DNA from: the human T2T-CHM13v2.0 reference genome, Homo sapiens
NCBI RefSeq assembly: GCF_009914755.1
Contig: NC_060931.1
Direction: 5' to 3' (one strand)
DNA: 64,000 nt
Below are positions 5,831 through 47,184 of the stretch, one piece after another (position 1 is the stretch's first letter; the number at the start of each line of letters is the position of its first letter). Under the pieces are notes generated by a model, which had not been told where the DNA came from, searched no databases, and saw nothing but the letters and a program-made list of their open reading frames with translations. The position numbers were made by a program, and so were the translations under genes.

Positions 5831-6954
5831 CGTTGCACCTGCTGAGCCTAGAATATCCCAAATCGCTTCTACCCTCCTTCACCAAGGTAACAGACTCTTT
5901 TCCTGGTGGTTTTACTTTCCCAGGTTTATCATAGAATTGTAAAGTCAACAGAACTTAAAGGTACTATTGGTCAGCTTTATTCCCTGTTTGACTCATAATA
6001 GCCAGGAAAACAGATTGTGTGTGAGAAGCAGGTTCTCAGATGCTCAGAGATCTTTATAAAGCCCTGACTCACCCACAACTCTTTGCCTTCATGGCCTGCT
6101 GAGTCTTTTACAATGCCACCCCATTACATCTCACAGTAGAGGAATCCCTTGCTCCGAATGTCATACATCCCAAAAAAAGTTACATAGCAAAATTCCACAA
6201 TAGGGGTTCTATATTTCATCATTTAAAGGGGAAAAGCTGCAGTACATTTCTAGCCCATCCAAAAACCCCAACAATTTCCTCCAGATATCACTAAAACACT
6301 TTTAAACAATCAAAGCAATATAATAAAAATCACCAATGATTTCTGCAAAATGTAAGGCCATTAAATGCCAATCAGCTAATTGTTTAGCTGATTATTTGCC
6401 AGTGATTTAACACTACACTCATATCTGTCTGCAGTAAGCAATGATATAAATGCAAACATTCTTTTCTACTACACTTCTACAAGCATTCAGAAAAATTGAT
6501 TAAATACAAAAATAGGTTCATATAGATAACAAAATCAAATTTCACTCACAAATTTAGAAAAGGATTATTTACTAATTAGAATTGCCTAAATGAGGTTTAG
6601 AGGAGAGGAGAGGGAGACCGGAGTCCTCACGGTGGCTGTTCAGCGGGGTGAGTGTGTGGGATGAGCTGATAAAGGAGGAGGTGGAATTGTTCACTCCTGG
6701 GGTTTGTCCATATCCAGTTCCAAGGGACTGGGAACTGTCTTTATGGCATTTGACCCTCCAGAAGGAGATGACTGTGGCCTGTTGTCTGAAATCATAGTCA
6801 AAGCAATGTGATGGGAAAAACTCAAAATGGCCATGTCTTTGTGTTTCCTCTGCTTGAAAGCATACGGACCCCTGGGTAATAATGTAACACTGTGCTTGAG
6901 ATTGCATCATATAGTGGAATGCTTCTGTTGATGACTTTTGTATGATTTTAAAGT

Positions 6955-7885
6955 TTCTTTTATTATTATTATTATACTTTAAATTCTGGGATACATGTGC
7001 ACAACGTGCAGGTTTGTCACATAGGTATACACGTGCCATGCTGATTTGCTGCACCCATCAACCCGTCATCTACATTAGGTACTTCTCCTAATGCTATCCC
7101 TCCCCTAGCCCCCCACCCCGCAACAGGCCCCAGTGTGTGATGTTCCCCTCCCTGTGGCCATGTGTTCTCTTTGTTCAACTCCCACTTATGAGTGAGAACA
7201 TGCGGGGTTTGGTTTTCTATTCCTGTGTCAGTTTGCTGAGAATGATTATTTCCAGCTTCATCAACATCCCTGTAAAGAGCATGAACTCATCCTTTTTATG
7301 GCTGTATAGTATTCCGTGGTGTATATGTGCTGCATTTTCTTTATCCAGTCTATTATTGATGGGCATTTGTGTTGGTTCCAAGTCTTTGCTATTGTGAACA
7401 AAGCTGCAATAAACATGTGTGTGCATGTGTCTTTATAGTAGAAAGATTTATAATCCTTTGGGTATATACCCAGTAATGGGATTGCTGGGTCAAATGATAT
7501 TTCTGGTTCTAGATCCTTGAGGAATCGCTACACTGTCTTCCACAATGATTGAACTAATTTACACTTGCACCAACAGTGTAAAAGCGTTCCTATTTCTCCA
7601 CATCCTCTCCAGCATCTGTTGTTTCCTGACTTTTTAATGATCATCATTCTAACTGGCGTGAGATGGCATCTCATTGTGGCTTTGATTTGCATTTCTCTAA
7701 TGACCAGTGATGATGAGCTTTTTTTCATGTTTGTTGGCTGCATAAATGTCTTATTTTGAGAAGTGTTTGTTCATATCCTTTGCCCACTTTTTGATGGGGT
7801 TGTTTTTTTCTTGTAAATTTGTTTAAGTTCTTTGTAGATTCTGGGTATTAGCCCTTTCTCAGATGGATAGATTGCAAAAATTTTT
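6955..7885 (-). mobile_element. 5'-truncated L1PA 3' end (~0.9 kb, older primate subfamily)
   Basis: Poly-T/(TTA)n tail, L1 3'UTR and ORF2 C-terminal peptides ([18 protein letters not shown]) on the minus strand. Confidence 0.93.
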
Positions 7886-8590
7886 AAATTCAAAAATGTA
7901 CTCAATTAATCTTTAAGATTATTCTGCAAGATTGACTCCTTCTTGCAACTCTGAGCATTGGTTTGAACTGAATTCTCTGGCAGTAAGTCCTTTGCTATGT
8001 AAGGCTCATAGCTCTTCACATTCTTCACTGTACATGTCACCAATTCAGACCTCTTCAAAAAGATCCAAAAAAAAAAAGGATCCAAGAAGGGTTTTTCTGT
8101 TGGTGATGTTGGTGTTGGTGTTGTTATTGTGTTGCTTTGCAGTCATCACTTCATGAAACTTTGGAAATCAGCAATAAATTGTCCCTTTCTCATAGAAGAA
8201 CTTTCACTTAATAATGTGGAGAAAATGATTCCAACAATTAAAAACCAATTTAGACAACGTGGGAACAAGACAGGATCTTGTCAGGAAACAACTGAGATAT
8301 GACTGCAGTTTACTTCACTTTCACCCTACAGACTCAAGGGCAATATCCATGTTTTACTGGTGTACACAACCAGATTTGCTTCAGTGGAGTTTCAATTCAA
8401 ATAATGAATTTTGGGTGAAATCAATTGAAAGTTATTTATGGCAAATATTTAAATTTGGGGAGTTTAAATAGTGAGGGAGAGCTTGAAGTTAAACATCTCC
8501 TGAATTCTTAATTATTCCAAAATATAATGATGAATTGAAAACTGCCTAGTAAGTCAGGAAGCTAAACAAGCCTAAAAGAAGTCACTGCAA

Positions 8591-9922
8591 TTTTTTTTTT
8601 TTTACGAAATTTTCCTGGACTAAATTCTTTTTCTTTTCGTTTTTTATTATTATTATTGTACTCTAAGTTTTACAGTACATGTGCACAACGTGCAGGTTTG
8701 TTACATAAGTATACATATGCCATGTTGGTGTGCTGCACCCATTAACTCATCATTTAGCATTAAGTATATCACCTAATGCCATCCCTCCCCCCTTCCCCCA
8801 CCCCACATCAGTCTCCGGTGTGTGATGTTCCCCTTCCTGTGTCCATGTGTTCTCATTCTTCAATTCCCACCTCTAAGTGAGAACATGCGGTGTTTGGTTT
8901 TTTGTCCTTGCAATAGTTTGCTGAGAATGATGGTTTCCAGCTTCATCCATGTCCCTACAAAGGACATGAACTCATCATTTTTTATGGCTGCATAGTATTC
9001 CATGGTGTATATGTGCCACATTTTCTTAAAGGACCAGTCTATCATTGCTGGACATTTGGGTTCGTTCCAAGTTTTGCTATTGTGAATAGTGCTGCAATAA
9101 ACATACGTGTGCATGTGTCTTTATAGCAGCATGATTTATAATACTTTGGGTATATACCCAGTAATGGGATGGCTGGGTCAAATGGCATTTCTAGTTCTAG
9201 ATACCTGAGGAGTCGCCACATTGACTTCCACAATGGTTGAACTAGTTTACAGTCCCACCAACAGTGTAAAAGGGTTCCTATTTCTCCACATCCTCTCCAG
9301 CACCTGTTGTTTCCTGACTTTTTAATGATCGCCATTCTAACTGGTGTGAGATGGTATCTCATTGTGGTTTTGATTTGCATTTCTCTGATGGCCAGTGATG
9401 ATGAGCATTTTTTCATGTGTTTTTTGGCTGCATAAATGCCTTCTTTTGAGAAGTGTCTGTTCATATCCTTCGCCCACTTTTTGACGGGGTTGTTTGTTTT
9501 TTTCTTGTAAATTTGTTTGAGTTCATTGTGGATTCTGGATATTAGCCCTTTGTCAGATGAGTAGGTTGCAAAAATTTTCTCCCATTCTGTAGGTTGCCTG
9601 TTCACTCTGATGGTAGTTTCTTTTGCTGTGCAGAAGCTCTTTAGTTTAATTAGATCCCATTTGTCAATTTTGGCTTTTGTTGCCATTGCTTTTGGTGTTT
9701 TAGACATGAAGTCCTTGCCCATGCCTATTTCCTGAATGGTATTGCCTATGTTTTCTTTTAGGATTTTTATGGTTTTAGGTCTAGCATGTAAGTCTTTAAT
9801 CCATCTTGAATTAATTTTTTATAAGGTGTAAGGAAGGGATCCAGTTTCAGCTTTCTACATATGGCTAGCCAGTTTTCCCAGTGCCATTTATTAAATAGGG
9901 AATCCTTTCCCCATTGCCTGTT
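8591..9922 (-). mobile_element. 3' half (~1.3 kb) of an L1PA4-like element, with a double poly(A) tail
   Basis: ORF2 C-terminus (ORF 9042-9722) and 3'UTR. A-rich tail at ~8628-8657, then ~24 nt of unique sequence, then T13 at 8591-8603. L1 homology stops at ...gcaatggggaaag. Confidence 0.95.
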
Positions 9923-10779
9923 GGCCACCATAGCTTCAAGTCAACACTGCAAGGTCTACTGGGTATTGGAGCATGCATTAAACACCTTTGGTCTTTCTTC
10001 TATTTGTGTTTTCACTGGGTAATGAGGTTCTCACGGGCACCACCTTTGGCTCCACTGGATGTTCATCCCTTCCTTCCTGGGTTTCTTATTTTGCAAATGG
10101 TGCCATAATCTGTCCAGTTGTCCATGCCAGAAGCCTTGACTCTTTCTTCCAATAAATAATAAAAGAGTTGTGTATTATAAAGGCTTCATATCTCTCTGGA
10201 GCATCCACTTTTTTTTTTCCTTATCTCTACTTGAGTTATGGTCACCATCATTTCTGGACTGGATTGTTGCAACTGCTTCTTTGGATTGAACCTGTTTCAA
10301 GGCTTGCTTCTCTCAAATTACCTTTCACACTGCAACCATAATGCTATATATTTATAAGACAAATATAATTGTGAGATGATGTCAGTGGGAATAGCAGAAT
10401 AATGCCCTCCAAAAATCTCCACAAAAATAGAGAACACTGTCAAAAAATAGTCAGAATCAACTCTTTGTTTTTTGTTTTTGTTTTTATTTTTGTTTTTCAG
10501 AACTCTGTGTATCAACCCAACGCTTGAAGTAATATAGAGAGTGTTCATTCAAGAAAAATAGTAAGAATAGTGAGTTCTGTCATGTTTCAACCTGCCCCTT
10601 TCTCATTACCCCCACTCTGCAGTAACCTTGAAAACCAAAAAACTAAAATCACTATGAAAACTAGCAGCCTGGAAGCCACTGAAGGCAGCTGAATGGAGTT
10701 AGAGCCCCTTAAAAGTCCCATTTCTAAAACAATGTCATTATTTGACCTGTCTAGTGGTGCCCTGGGAGATCCCACTTAC

Positions 10780-11062
10780 AACTCAGGAATGGAAAACCAA
10801 ATAGTGTATTTTCTCATTTCTTAGTGGGAGCTAAGCTATGCGGATGCAAAGGCATGAGACCGATATAATGGACAGAGGAACTGGGAGGGGGGAAGATTGG
10901 GAGGGGGATGAAGGATAAAAGATGATACATTGGGTCCTGTGTACTCTGCTTGGGTGATGGGTGCACTAAAATCTCAGAGAACACCACTACATAACTAATC
11001 CATGTAACCAAAAACCACCTGTACCCCAAAAACTATTGAAATAAAAATAAAAATTTAAAAAG
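10780..11062 (+). mobile_element. Old L1 (L1MA/L1PB-type) 3' end
   Basis: caggaatggaaaacca...catgtaaccaaaaaccacctgtacccc...aataaaa 3'UTR signature. Confidence 0.75.
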
Positions 11063-11449
11063 GAACAAGGTAATGAAAAAGAATAAATATAGTACTAGTT
11101 TAAAAGAAAGAAAAATCCTGAAATCTTCCCCACTGTTTCTAAGAGTCCTCTTTTTCCTCAGCCTTTTCTTTACCTCCTCAGTCCTACAGAATTATGCACT
11201 GTTTCTTTGTTGGTGCAAGACTCCAAAAGCCTAAAATGTGGTGTTTTTACTGTTACTTAAAAAAAAAAAAAACACCCTGGTATTCACACACACAATTATT
11301 CCTATTTGACTTTTCCTTTACTGTTGTTTCAGTTTCAGGAACTTTTACTGAAGATTCTGCAGAGAACATGCAGAGTCAGCATGCAGCCTTCCTTCCTGAT
11401 TTTGATCACTCTTCCTTTTGCTCCTTCCTCTTTTAAAAAAATGTAAGAT

Positions 11450-12860
11450 GCTTTTATTGGTGTCTTTGAGAGTCTGTTCTTTAGTGGATAATAATATCTC
11501 TGTTTTAGTCTGTCAAGCTTTGGTTAAAAAAACTCATTCCTACCCCCTTCCACATTATATTGAAAGGTGGAAAAAGTCCATTTAATAAACATTTAAAAAC
11601 CCCATATATTCAGAACATTGGATGCATTATAAATGATCATCAAGTGTGGGCGTAAGAATGTTTAGAGTACCCCATCAGGTTTAAAGAGAAGATATATTTA
11701 CACTGATTTCTGGCATGCAATTTATGTTCTTTAAATATCTAAAAGACTCATTTCTAAATCTTCTAGCTCCTGGAGAAGGGCTGTCTCTTTTTGAATTTTC
11801 TACAGCTGCTTTTTTTCCCAGCTGTTTGCCAGTTGCTGCTTGTTATTTCAGTTGTTTGATTGTTTTCAGTTTCTTAGGTTCTCATGTTTTCCCCGCTATC
11901 TTAAAATCTCTTCATGTTGGCTGAGAGAACAAATTTTGGGGTGTGTTTCCTGTTTTGCAGTGACTGGCTTCATGCTTCCTTTGTTCTTAGGGGATGTTTT
12001 GGGAAATGGCTTGTTATTTGCCCTTGTAGTTTCATATTCTCTGCGGCCCCTCCTCATGCAGCTTAAGATCAACGACTTGTTCATTTCTTCTAAGTGGAGT
12101 TCTAAAAGTCATTGCAATATTGGCTCCTCACAGGGTACTTAGAACTGCTTGATAAGTTATTGATCTTATTGGAAATACTATGTCCAGAATTTTTCACTAA
12201 GGATTTCTGCATTTGATGGCGTGATATTCTTGTGCAGGATAGAGCTAGTATAATGGAAAATCTCGCACCCATTATTAACACATAACCTGGGGGCACATGT
12301 AGTAGTTGTTGCAAGACAGGTTCAGTATGCAAGTATCAGTCATGTATTACACCATATTAATAGAATGAAGGACAAAAATTGCATGATCATCTCACTGGAT
12401 GCAGAAAAAACATTGTACAGCTCTTTATCTGGGCACCAAGCAAAGTATGTAAAATTTGAAGCCATAGGTTTGGAAATAAGTTTGTGGTTTTTAACACCCC
12501 ACAATTTGTCCCCTTGATTTCCAAACCCCTGCAGTAGTAATATGTATGAATACAGTGGTAATGTGTATGAAGGCTATAGTAGACTGTATTACAAGAGCCA
12601 GTTCCAAAGTCAAGTTTACAATCACACAGCAAGTAGAGAATTGCTGCTTTGACAAGAGTTTTCCTAGAGGGCCCAACTCATTATAAATGGGATCACTCTT
12701 CAGTATTTACATTATAGCATTTTATTTGTTGCAATATAGAAACATGTTTGTTATTGACAGTAGAAAACTATGGTTTTGTCAACATCTGCACTACCTATTA
12801 CCAACTCACCAGTAGCTTTTAGATTGTATTTTAGTTCTCACTACTAATGTTACTTTGCCT
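11450..12860 (-). pseudogene. Decayed, 5'-truncated processed pseudogene of EIF2A (eIF2A WD/beta-propeller initiation factor)
   Basis: Minus-strand translations match human EIF2A in order with no introns: LVIGSADVDKT (~LVIASTDVDKT), CDCKLDFGTGSCNTVYYSLH (~CDPVFDFGTGPRNAAYYSPH), KLISKPMASNFTYFAWCPD, TATCAPRLCVNNG..HYTSSILHK, NNKPFPKTSPKN, AATGKQL..KIQKETALLQELEDLE. Many frameshifts and stops. Minus-strand AATAAA at 11453-11458. Confidence 0.88.
12318..12415 (+). mobile_element. Short old L1 ORF2 fragment interrupting the EIF2A pseudogene
   Basis: catattaatagaatgaaggacaaaaattgcatgatcatctcactggatgcagaaaaa matches the L1 RT region. EIF2A homology resumes on both sides. Confidence 0.7.
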
Positions 12861-13282
12861 CAAACCAGGAAACAGGCACCATCTTGGAAGCAAGGAGTAA
12901 GCCTTTACCAGGCACAGAATCTATTGTAAGATACTATTTGTAGAATAATATATTCAGTGAAAATATATTTCAAAATGAGACATTAAGGTTGAAAAAGACA
13001 TTAAGGTTGAAAAAGAAGGAGTTGCTGTGAATATAATCACACTTCAAGATAAGAAAATTTTCCTTCCTTCCTTCCTTCTTTCTTTCTTTCTCTTCTTTTT
13101 CTTCTTTCTTTTTTTCACATTTATTCCCCTTTTATTAACTGATTTGAAAGGCAACTTTAAAAAACAATGTGTATATTATTGTATTGTAGAATCTATAACA
13201 TAGAAAAATATAATGTTTACTATTAAAAGCACAGAGAAGGTGATGGGAATAAAGCTATATTGGAGGAAGAAAATGACAAGAT

Positions 13283-18202
<4,920 letters not shown>

Positions 18203-18384
18203 TCACCGCAATTTTTAAATTCACAGTAACAAGCCTCCCCTCCCCATGTTTTGGAATTTTGGGATGTTAAATCCACTTGTTCCTTTTGTTTTGCAATTTC
18301 TCATCATATCTTTACCTGTGCACCCCCTCCTTTTACATACACAATGTTTTGTATCATCTTATTGAGAATGATATACTCTATAAT

Positions 18385-18582
18385 TGCACTGTTCAAAACG
18401 GTAACCACTAGCCACATGTGGCCGTTTAATTATATGATTTAAAATTAAAATGTAAAATTCAGTTTCTCCATCACATTGGCCACCTTGCTAGTGCTCAACA
18501 GCCACATGTGCTAGTGGCTGCCATATTGGACAGGGCAGACAGTAAACATGTCCATCACAGAATTCTCTATTGAACAGTACTG
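18385..18582. mobile_element. MER3/MER33-like hAT-Charlie element
   Basis: Inverted-repeat-rich ccactagccacatgtggc ... gccacatgtgctagtggctgccatattggacag, ending tattgaacagtactg. Confidence 0.7.
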
Positions 18583-19853
18583 CTTTATAAATAAACACTT
18601 TACAAGAAACCACAGAACAATTGTCAAATACATCTCAATATGACTGCAGGAAATCTGTGGTCTATTCTTTCGGCTTGACCCATTTTCCAAAATTGCCTTG
18701 AACCATGGGAATAAAATGAATTTTAAAATGTCATAGTACTCTAAAACATGCACCTCTACTCAGCCCCTGCCCTCTCCTTCCTCACCTCCTCCCAACATCT
18801 ATCTTACTCCTCCTTTAAGGCTGTAGTCACATCACTTACTAGAACCATGGGACATAGGGGAAATGTTCCATGTATGCTCATGTTCAGAAGGGACAGGAGT
18901 GAGAAGGCTTGAACAAGAAATTTCATGAGGGAGATATTTAAAACTGTGCTTGGAAGTCTCTACAGATGATCTAAAAGATGAAGCAGGAGAAGCAATATTT
19001 GCATCTCCAAACCTAGAGGAACAGTGCAAAAACAGAAGGACCTATCTCCAGTTGCTGGGAGTGAGACCAGTTGTTAGCTCTCAGCTGTTGAGCCGTCAGA
19101 CCTGTCCAGAAATTAGCTTATGCTGAAGAGAGATGCCCTATGTAAGTCAAGTGTCTTTTCCAGAGGAAGTTTGCATCCGATGGGGATTATAAAGTTCTGC
19201 TCACTCTCCTTCATTCTGAAAGTCCAACCAAACTTTAGAACTCCCTGTAGAGTCTATATTTGTTGTGACTACATCTCAGTCTCACTTCTCCCTGCCTAAT
19301 CCTGGGTTCTTCCCTTCTCCCTCTAGCACATTTCCTGAGAAGATTCCCTAATAAACTTCCTTCATCCATTTTATCTTCATCTCAACAGTCTGTATTCCTA
19401 GGAACCCAAACCTTTGCACATGTACATGTACATATCACTTATGTTAGGAAACGCAGTGATGTAATTTGCAATATTAGTAGGTCAAAAGGAAAAAGACATG
19501 GAATTATATCAGTCAACGTCAAAATAAAATTTTCTAAATTTATACCACAGATAAAAGACTTTAATGAAATAGGACTAAGCAAAGTATAGCCACACTGATT
19601 TTAAAATAAACTAATTAATTTCCAATAACCAACATCAATATTAATGATAAGATATTAGGTGCCCTACAGGTAAATAAATAATAAAAGCACATTAACTCAC
19701 TTTTGAAAAGGTAGCAAGCAATTGTAATTATACAAGAGAAAGCAACATAAGATATTTTTGGAAACAAGGAGGGAAAATTATCACTATTTGCAACTGAGTC
19801 TATGATAAACCTGGAAACTCCAAGACAATCAAAAGGAAATGTTTTAAATGCTA

Positions 19854-19978
19854 GGATGTGGAGAAATAAGAACACTTTTACACTGTTGGTGGGACCGTAA
19901 ACTAGTTCAACCATTGTGGAAGTCAGTGTGGCGATTCCTCAGGCATCTTGAACTAGAAATACCATTTGACCCAGCCAA
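19854..19978 (+). mobile_element. Internal L1PA ORF2 fragment (~125 bp), no tail
   Basis: Translates [41 protein letters not shown]. Confidence 0.85.
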
Positions 19979-20529
19979 CACTCCAGAGTATTACTATAGA
20001 CATTTCCTAGACAATTTCTCCCCACAGGGAGGTTCTCTGAAATTACAGAGCTGGACAGGGAAGAAAGGCCCAGAATCCTAGAAGCCATGAATGAGTTATG
20101 TAAAAATGTTTTGATGGTTAATGATCCTTACAATCAGACTCAGACAAAAATGTCCCCTCTCAGGTTCCCCTTTCTGTGCCCTTCTTCCCCTGGGCAGTGC
20201 CTATCAGAGGCTCCTCTTCTCTCCCAGTGGCATCTGCTTTAGAACAATCCCTGCTGCTGGTGTCAATGAGGTTTAAGCCCTTCTCAGGGGGCCATTTGCA
20301 TCTAGACAAACTTCTAACTGTTGGGACATATCCCAGCTGGGAAGGACTGAAATCCACCAACTTCCTTGGCATTCATGCCTTTCTTTCCAGTCCAGATGAA
20401 ATCATTAAAACACTCTTTTTTCACTTTTGAGAAGAAGAGACAGTTGGCCCACATGACAGCAAATAACTACTGATTAACTTTCCATTTAAACTGTTTATTT
20501 TGCATAATGGCATGAAAGAGAATTTCAAA

Positions 20530-40294: not shown

Positions 40295-47184
<6,890 letters not shown>

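What the first reader, a model, noticed from the sequence alone, without database searches (positions are those of the whole stretch)
11450..12860. Ancient EIF2A retrocopy apparently moved a second time as L1 cargo
Seen: an intronless, heavily frameshifted EIF2A copy, itself interrupted by an old L1 fragment and visibly far more decayed than the L1PA halves around it. It lies antisense to the inferred template RNA. Inference: it did not come from EIF2A mRNA at this site but is a second-generation copy of an older pseudogene, so its divergence would overstate its age here. It should have a close sister copy elsewhere sharing the same frameshifts.
Basis: partly seen in the sequence, partly recalled or inferred. 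Interest (0 to 1): 0.7.

Follow-up and report, generated by a model that had tools for sequence, protein, structure and literature searches.

The report
L1 re-copied an old EIF2A pseudogene
This decayed EIF2A gene copy is a duplicate of an older copy 185,000 bases away, likely carried here as cargo when a jumping L1 element was copied from a long spliced read-through RNA, so it is likely far younger at this spot than its decay suggests.

Summary
EIF2AP3 lies inside one 9.6-kb insertion (8596-18199) with a 17-bp target-site duplication, an L1 endonuclease site, a poly(A) tail and a twin-priming inversion. The predicted sister exists: window 9917-12875 matches chr7:151,660,599-151,663,538 with 3.6% substitutions and shares the L1 interruption. 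Both copies differ from the chr3 gene by about 22%. New here: the 3.37-kb cargo is spliced. It joins that block, across a 110,947-nt GT-AG intron, to an exon near 151,774,486, then across a 156-nt GT-AG intron to the flank of a near-full-length L1PA at 151,775,425, the likely source. The source lies only 65-71 kb from the new copy. The RNA was likely read-through from the GIMAP8 side; no promoter was shown. The tail carries a 30-nt tag from chr7:128.78 Mb, where no L1 now sits. A third partial copy, fused to L1, replaces the source's 3' end. The mechanism (spliced L1 5' transduction) is known; my searches did not find this case described. Unusual points: cargo size, an 8.3-kb inverted arm, and local reinsertion. 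Primate orthology could not be tested.

The parts
8579..8595 (+). left target-site duplication, 17 bp
   Evidence: 16 of 17 identical to 18200-18216; 0 of 3000 random windows match as well
8591..8603 (-). poly(A) tail of the insertion (13 T on +; the first 5 also belong to the TSD)
8604..8633 (-). 30-nt 3' tag between two A-rich tracts, matching chr7:128,778,100-129
   Evidence: 28-nt exact match; only 2 genome hits at up to 3 mismatches, control 1; 29 of 30 by reading; no L1PA in the 801 bp fetched there
8634..9917 (-). L1PA 3' arm (non-inverted part, about 1.28 kb)
9918..12875 (+). cargo block A, copy of chr7:151,660,600-151,663,538, ending at a GT donor
   Evidence: 95.3% over 2967 columns; junctions
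11430..12860 (-). EIF2A processed pseudogene (EIF2AP3), second-generation copy; poly(A) signal near 11452-11457; 5' edge approximate
12310..12408 (+). old L1 ORF2 fragment interrupting the pseudogene; shared with copy A, absent from the chr10 copy
12876..12929 (+). cargo exon B: chr7:151,774,486-532 joined to 151,774,866-872; 333 nt missing with a 2-nt microhomology; starts after AG, ends before GT
12930..13283 (+). cargo exon C: unique 5' flank of the source L1, from chr7:151,775,029 (after AG); holds the private 18-bp duplication
13284..18199 (+). L1PA 5' UTR, ORF1 and most of ORF2 (inverted arm); reading frames broken
   Evidence: groups with the source L1 in 32 of 59 informative sites
18200..18216 (+). 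right target-site duplication, followed by TTTT/AA endonuclease site

Best explanation
The pseudogene here is a copy of an older EIF2A retrocopy at chr7:151.66 Mb, likely moved as a spliced 5' transduction on an L1 RNA and likely inserted by twin-primed reverse transcription, an inferred 15-20 million years ago. Shown: the element has a TSD, endonuclease site and poly(A); its cargo is three pieces of the same strand of the GIMAP cluster joined exactly at GT-AG boundaries; the last piece runs into an L1 at the same junction as at the source locus. Inferred: a + strand transcript, likely read-through from the GIMAP8 side, crossed the old pseudogene antisense, spliced over 111 kb (past GIMAP7 and GIMAP4) into an old repeat upstream of a then-young L1PA, and read through that L1. 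L1 ORF2p nicked the target and copied 1.3 kb from the tail. The second DNA end primed inside ORF2 and copied 8.3 kb toward the RNA's 5' end, which gave the inversion. The copy has no predicted function.
For: TSD 16/17, TTTT/AA, poly(T). The two L1 arms are contiguous in L1 coordinates with a 10-13-nt overlap; 3-nt microhomology at the priming site and 1 nt at the arm junction. Introns of 110,947 and 156 nt, both GT-AG; 0.6% of 200,000 random breakpoint pairs allow GT-AG, 3.8e-5 for two. Neither flank of the element matches any of the 20 fetched stretches, and the source's flanks and skipped pieces are absent from window 6001-20000. Window vs A 3.6%; each vs parent about 22%; polarised changes 16 on A, 11 on the window copy, 2 unresolved. 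Four-copy test: window+source 32 sites vs 13 and 14 for two neighbouring L1s; 18 vs 0 and 3 in the 5' UTR/ORF1 part. A three-AIG1-domain gene (GIMAP8; name recalled) on + ends its last ORF 4.5 kb upstream of block A.
Against: The L1 body links weakly to the source in ORF2 (10 vs 11 vs 7 sites) and the 3' arm (4 vs 2 vs 3). An earlier test with other comparators favoured neighbour N1 (23 sites vs 11), and N1 is as close or closer in raw identity in most tiles. Exon C differs from its source by 6.7%, against 3.6% for block A. The source's 3' end is replaced by another fragment, so the tag cannot be found there. Donor 1 is a weak match beyond GT, and both junctions also carry short microhomology (3 and 1 nt). 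No promoter or transcript was shown. Insertion within 100 kb of the source is unexpected for an exported L1 RNA (about 6e-5 if uniform; my arithmetic). The age rests on a recalled neutral rate.
Confidence: 0.85

Rival explanations
1. Two-RNA chimera: an L1 RNA from a now-lost element at chr7:128.78 Mb started the insertion and gave the tail and tag; the internally primed cDNA then switched, through L1-L1 homology, onto a local spliced read-through RNA that supplied the L1 5' end and the cargo.
For: The tag maps 23 Mb away and is not seen at the source. Grouping with the source is strong only in the 5' UTR/ORF1 part. It would help explain the local origin of the cargo.
Against: Window+source derived sites also occur near the priming point (17812, 18158) and are interleaved with the conflicting ones, not split at one switch. 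One RNA explains the contiguous arms more simply. The source may have inherited the tag and lost it with its 3' end.
Confidence: 0.1
2. DNA-level duplication by repeated template switching during repair, patched into or beside an existing L1.
For: All donors lie within 190 kb; junctions carry 1-3 nt microhomology; a nearby composite fragment (copy B) lacks TSD and poly(A) and looks like a repair patch; proximal repair duplications exist (PMC2671141, abstract and section 7 read).
Against: Two exact GT-AG junctions (3.8e-5 by chance), a TSD around the whole unit, and twin-priming geometry. The repair duplications in that paper are at most 619 bp with donors under 5 kb away.
Confidence: 0.04
3. 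The pseudogene arose here directly from EIF2A mRNA, and the copy at 151.66 Mb is the duplicate.
For: RefSeq lists EIF2AP3 at this site (hub annotation). Neither copy is closer to the parent (21.9% vs 22.1%).
Against: The window copy has lost introns that the other loci keep and sits inside a TSD-bounded L1 unit whose own divergence is a few percent.
Confidence: 0.01

Closest known systems
Spliced L1 5' transductions from the 8q21.11 source L1 (PMC12350158; passages read; scheme also in PMC6035798, passages)
   Same: Upstream transcription, canonical splicing, read-through into a near-full-length L1, copy elsewhere with the spliced cargo.
   Different: Here the event is an ancient fixed one, acceptors lie upstream of the L1 rather than inside it, the intron is 111 kb, the cargo 3.37 kb with a whole pseudogene, and no promoter is identified.
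mRNA/lncRNA-L1 chimeras of Law and Burns (PMC13174262 section 13 and PMC11838501 section 25 read; supplements searched by term)
   Same: Old L1PA4/L1PA5-age near-full-length L1s with spliced 5' cargo, TSD and long skipped introns (median 48 kb, up to 220 kb).
   Different: Their MAP3K13 and FHIT cases have no surviving source L1, leaving trans-splicing open; here the source L1 and all splice sites survive, which shows cis-splicing. This locus is not among the chr7 rows of their table file.
Twin-priming 5' inversion (bioRxiv 10.1101/2024.08.27.596794; passages read; the 2001 original was not held)
   Same: Inverted 5' arm, short duplication at the inversion point, inversion near L1 position 4.9 kb (their median 5.15 kb).
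   Different: The internally primed arm is 8.3 kb against a 1.3-kb tail arm; their medians are 0.54 and 1.51 kb.
L1 3' transduction tags
   Same: Short unique sequence between two A tracts that maps to one locus.
   Different: No L1 now sits at the mapped locus in this assembly.

Membership tests
L1 target-primed insertion | target-site duplication around the whole unit | tested here: met
   17 bp, 1 mismatch
L1 target-primed insertion | endonuclease motif and poly(A) tail | tested here: met
   TTTT/AA at 18216/18217; 13 T at 8591-8603
L1 target-primed insertion | empty orthologous site in an outgroup | not testable with these tools
   no primate genomes are held
Twin-priming 5' inversion | two opposed arms contiguous in L1 coordinates, with a short deletion or duplication | tested here: met
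   10-13-nt overlap
Twin-priming 5' inversion | microhomology at the internal priming site and between cDNA ends | tested here: inconclusive
   3 nt and 1 nt, compatible but short
L1 5' transduction | source L1 with the same upstream flank and junction | tested here: met
   chr7:151,775,029-425
L1 5' transduction | cargo joined at canonical splice sites | tested here: met
   two GT-AG introns
L1 5' transduction | L1 body descends from the source L1 | tested here: inconclusive
   32 vs 13 vs 14 sites overall, but mixed in ORF2
L1 5' transduction | upstream promoter or observed transcript | not testable with these tools
   no RNA data; GIMAP8 read-through is inferred from position
L1 3' transduction | unique sequence between two A tracts mapping to one locus | tested here: met
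L1 3' transduction | source L1 upstream of the mapped locus | tested here: not met
   none in the 801 bp fetched; the site reads like an empty endonuclease site
First-generation processed pseudogene at this site | own poly(A) and TSD, and no older unspliced donor | tested here: not met
   donor copy exists; no repeat over 9 nt found around copy A either
Segmental duplication | homology continues into the flanks, introns kept | tested here: not met

The most novel reading that the evidence does not exclude
A chromatin-retained, spliced read-through RNA spanning 120 kb of the GIMAP cluster was reverse-transcribed by L1 machinery close to where it was made, twice: once into the 9.6-kb insertion 65 kb from its source, and once into the patch (copy B) that replaced the source L1's own 3' end. 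This would be a fossil case of local retrotransposition of nuclear RNA.
Probability: 0.15. Interest if true: 0.7.

Novelty: new member of a known kind. Interest (0 to 1): 0.45.

Why it matters
It is a fully traceable ancient spliced L1 5' transduction: donor block, splice sites and source L1 all survive, whereas the published MAP3K13 and FHIT cases lack their source. It records an otherwise unknown 120-kb read-through transcript of the GIMAP immune cluster that must have been made in the germline or early embryo. It shows that dating a pseudogene by distance to its parent (22%) can overstate its age at a site roughly tenfold (about 1.8% per branch here), and that the older, apparently unlisted copy is the original. 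No function is proposed. The local landing and the 8.3-kb inverted arm are the parts a specialist would look at twice.

Tried and rejected
Segmental duplication: flanks do not match. Sharing of the 18-bp duplication: not shared. Extension of EIF2A homology past the donor in copy A: the next 341 nt match only themselves. chr10:45.69 Mb EIF2A copy as sister: 68-72% and lacks the L1 interruption, so an independent retrocopy. Siblings carrying the 3' tag: none at up to 3 mismatches; five 1-mismatch hits to the 19-mer did not extend. chr9:95.327 Mb hit as a sibling 5' transduction: no L1PA in the 1.4 kb read. TSD of the source L1: not found in the 20 kb downstream. The first L1 grouping test favoured neighbour N1; the 5' segment had too few copies; adding a fourth copy of similar age favoured the source. 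One search crashed after printing the junctions and was rerun; a mis-indexed 9-mer was corrected. Literature: 10 searches; EIF2AP3 appears in 1 paper, only as a landmark for a methylation probe (PMC9939425, passages). The T2T repeat preprint lists L1 3' but no L1 5' class among its top-confidence transductions (passages); its supplements and mmc7.pdf of PMC13174262 could not be seen and may bear on novelty, as may subscription papers.

Full report
Observation. The - strand of window 11430-12860 matches five separate stretches of a chr3 gene in order and without introns; the largest encodes Pfam eIF2A. Against four fetched parental stretches it has 207 substitutions in 944 columns and 25 gap openings. 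A 99-nt old L1 piece at 12310-12408 splits one parental exon. The 18-bp duplication is there.

The unit. The pseudogene lies inside a 9,604-bp insertion. A 17-bp duplication (1 mismatch) stands at 8579-8595 and 18200-18216; 0 of 3000 random windows match as well. The right copy is followed by TTTT/AA and the left runs into 13 T. Inside are a 30-nt tag, the L1PA 3' arm on - (8634-9917), a 3,366-bp cargo (9918-13283) and the L1PA 5' arm on + (13284-18199). The arms are contiguous in L1 coordinates with a 10-13-nt overlap, and the right TSD shares 3 nt with the L1 at the priming point. This is the twin-priming pattern as described in bioRxiv 10.1101/2024.08.27.596794 (passages), except that the internally primed arm is 8.3 kb where their median is 0.54 kb.

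The sister. A genome search with the cargo scored 40 of 4235 candidates and found one long match, chr7:151,660,599-151,663,538 (copy A), plus three local pieces. Searches with the pseudogene halves scored all candidates (7 of 7, 5 of 5) and found only the window, A, a partial copy B, the chr3 parent and a distant chr10 copy. Window and A differ at 105 of 2934 columns (3.6%) and share the L1 interruption. Both are about 22% from the parent. Polarised on the parent, 16 changes fall on A, 11 on the window copy and 2 are unresolved. With a recalled neutral rate near 1e-9 per site per year, 1.8% per branch gives roughly 15-20 million years.

The cargo is spliced. Block A ends before GT at 151,663,539; the window continues with sequence that follows AG at 151,774,485 (intron 110,947 nt). 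After a 333-nt internal gap with 2-nt microhomology, which is not a splice, a 9-nt piece ends before GT at 151,774,873, and the window resumes after AG at 151,775,028 (intron 156 nt). That 9-mer occurs once in the 700-nt stretch searched and 5 times in 198 kb. Random breakpoint pairs allow GT-AG in 0.6% of 200,000 trials, 3.8e-5 for two. The last piece runs into a near-full-length L1PA at 151,775,425 at the same junction as in the window. The element's flanks match none of the 20 fetched stretches, so this is not a segmental duplication. A + strand gene with three AIG1 ORFs (GIMAP8; name recalled) ends its last ORF at about 151,656,125, 4.5 kb upstream of block A; another AIG1 ORF and GIMAP4 (hub annotation) lie inside the skipped intron. 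Read-through from GIMAP8 is inferred from this position alone. Exon B looks like part of a MaLR-type LTR (recalled label, not tested).

The source L1. In a four-copy test on non-CpG sites, window+source is supported by 32 of 59 sites, against 13 and 14 for two neighbours: 18/0/3 in the 5' UTR and ORF1, 10/11/7 in ORF2, 4/2/3 in the 3' arm. An earlier test with older comparators favoured neighbour N1, 23 to 11. Exon C is 6.7% from its source. So the flank identifies the source firmly and the body only moderately; later gene conversion is a likely cause. PMC2768975 (section 7 part 1 read, supplements searched) lists an expressed 7q36.1 L1PA5 of 5,534 bp. Its 7-nt tag occurs at the end of a small antisense L1 nested in the source, 5,526 bp from the source's start, and at 17 other places in the region searched, none at an L1 3' end that I could see. 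The source is therefore probably that L1PA5; the mapping is inferred.

The tag. Window 8606-8633 matches chr7:128,778,102-129 exactly, the only other hit at up to 3 mismatches. No L1PA lies in the 801 bp read there, and the match ends at a T-run/A-run boundary like an endonuclease site. The simplest reading is a 3' transduction from a since-lost ancestor, inherited through the source L1. This cannot be checked because the source's 3' end is replaced.

Copy B. At 151,781,655-782,796 a 590-nt pseudogene piece is fused to 553 nt of L1 ORF2, in the same order as in the window, with no TSD or poly(A) seen. The pseudogene piece is 4.1% from A and 5.5% from the window and sides weakly with A (4 vs 1 shared derived sites). 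The L1 piece is 9 of 551 from the window and shares 14 derived sites with it. The two halves disagree; later conversion or a composite patch are possible. Unexplained.

Comparison with what is known. Spliced L1 5' transduction is described (PMC12350158 passages; PMC6035798 passages), and Law and Burns list 17 fixed mRNA/lncRNA-L1 chimeras. Their six readable supplement files hold no GIMAP or EIF2A, and the 12 chr7 mentions in the table file belong to two other loci. Ten literature searches found EIF2AP3 in one paper, as a landmark only. The case is thus a new member of a known kind as far as these searches reach.

Verdict. Shown: the sister, the TSD-bounded unit, the splice junctions, the source flank. 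Inferred: the promoter, one RNA versus two, the age, and why it landed 65-71 kb from its source. Confidence 0.85; interest 0.45.

Noticed in passing
L035:1655-2796 (chr7:151,781,655-782,796): Third partial EIF2A copy fused to an L1 ORF2 piece, replacing the source L1's 3' end; the two halves have discordant ancestry. Not among the genes listed in the hub annotation.
   Followed up: partly
L002:1497-4436 (chr7:151,660,599-151,663,538): The older EIF2A retrocopy, about 4.5 kb past the last GIMAP8 ORF; its annotation status is unknown to me because it lies beyond the 100 kb listed.
   Followed up: yes
L049 (chr9:95,326,743-908) vs window 13116-13281: The 166 nt just upstream of the source L1 match chr9 at 92%, with 7, 5 (+ one 2-nt gap) and 7 private changes in window, source and chr9. 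At the source the block abuts a T-rich microsatellite that may be an old poly(A) tail, so the source L1 may itself carry transduced DNA.
   Followed up: partly
L048:201-230 (chr7:128,778,100-129): Apparent empty L1 site that matches the insertion's 3' tag.
   Followed up: partly
L035:917-1131 (chr7:151,780,917-781,131): Short antisense L1 3' fragment nested in the source L1; its end carries the expression tag reported 17 times in lymphoblastoid cDNA in PMC2768975.
   Followed up: partly
L045 (chr10:45,687,671-45,688,789): Independent EIF2A retrocopy, 68-72% to the window copy, without the L1 interruption.
   Followed up: partly
chr7:151.64-151.90 Mb (L021-L040, window): The GIMAP cluster holds many long L1PA copies of different ages, including one at window 41149-47177; high L1 density may raise local insertion and conversion rates.
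   Followed up: no
window 6941-7884: Separate truncated L1PA 3' fragment on the - strand, 700 bp left of the insertion.
   Followed up: no
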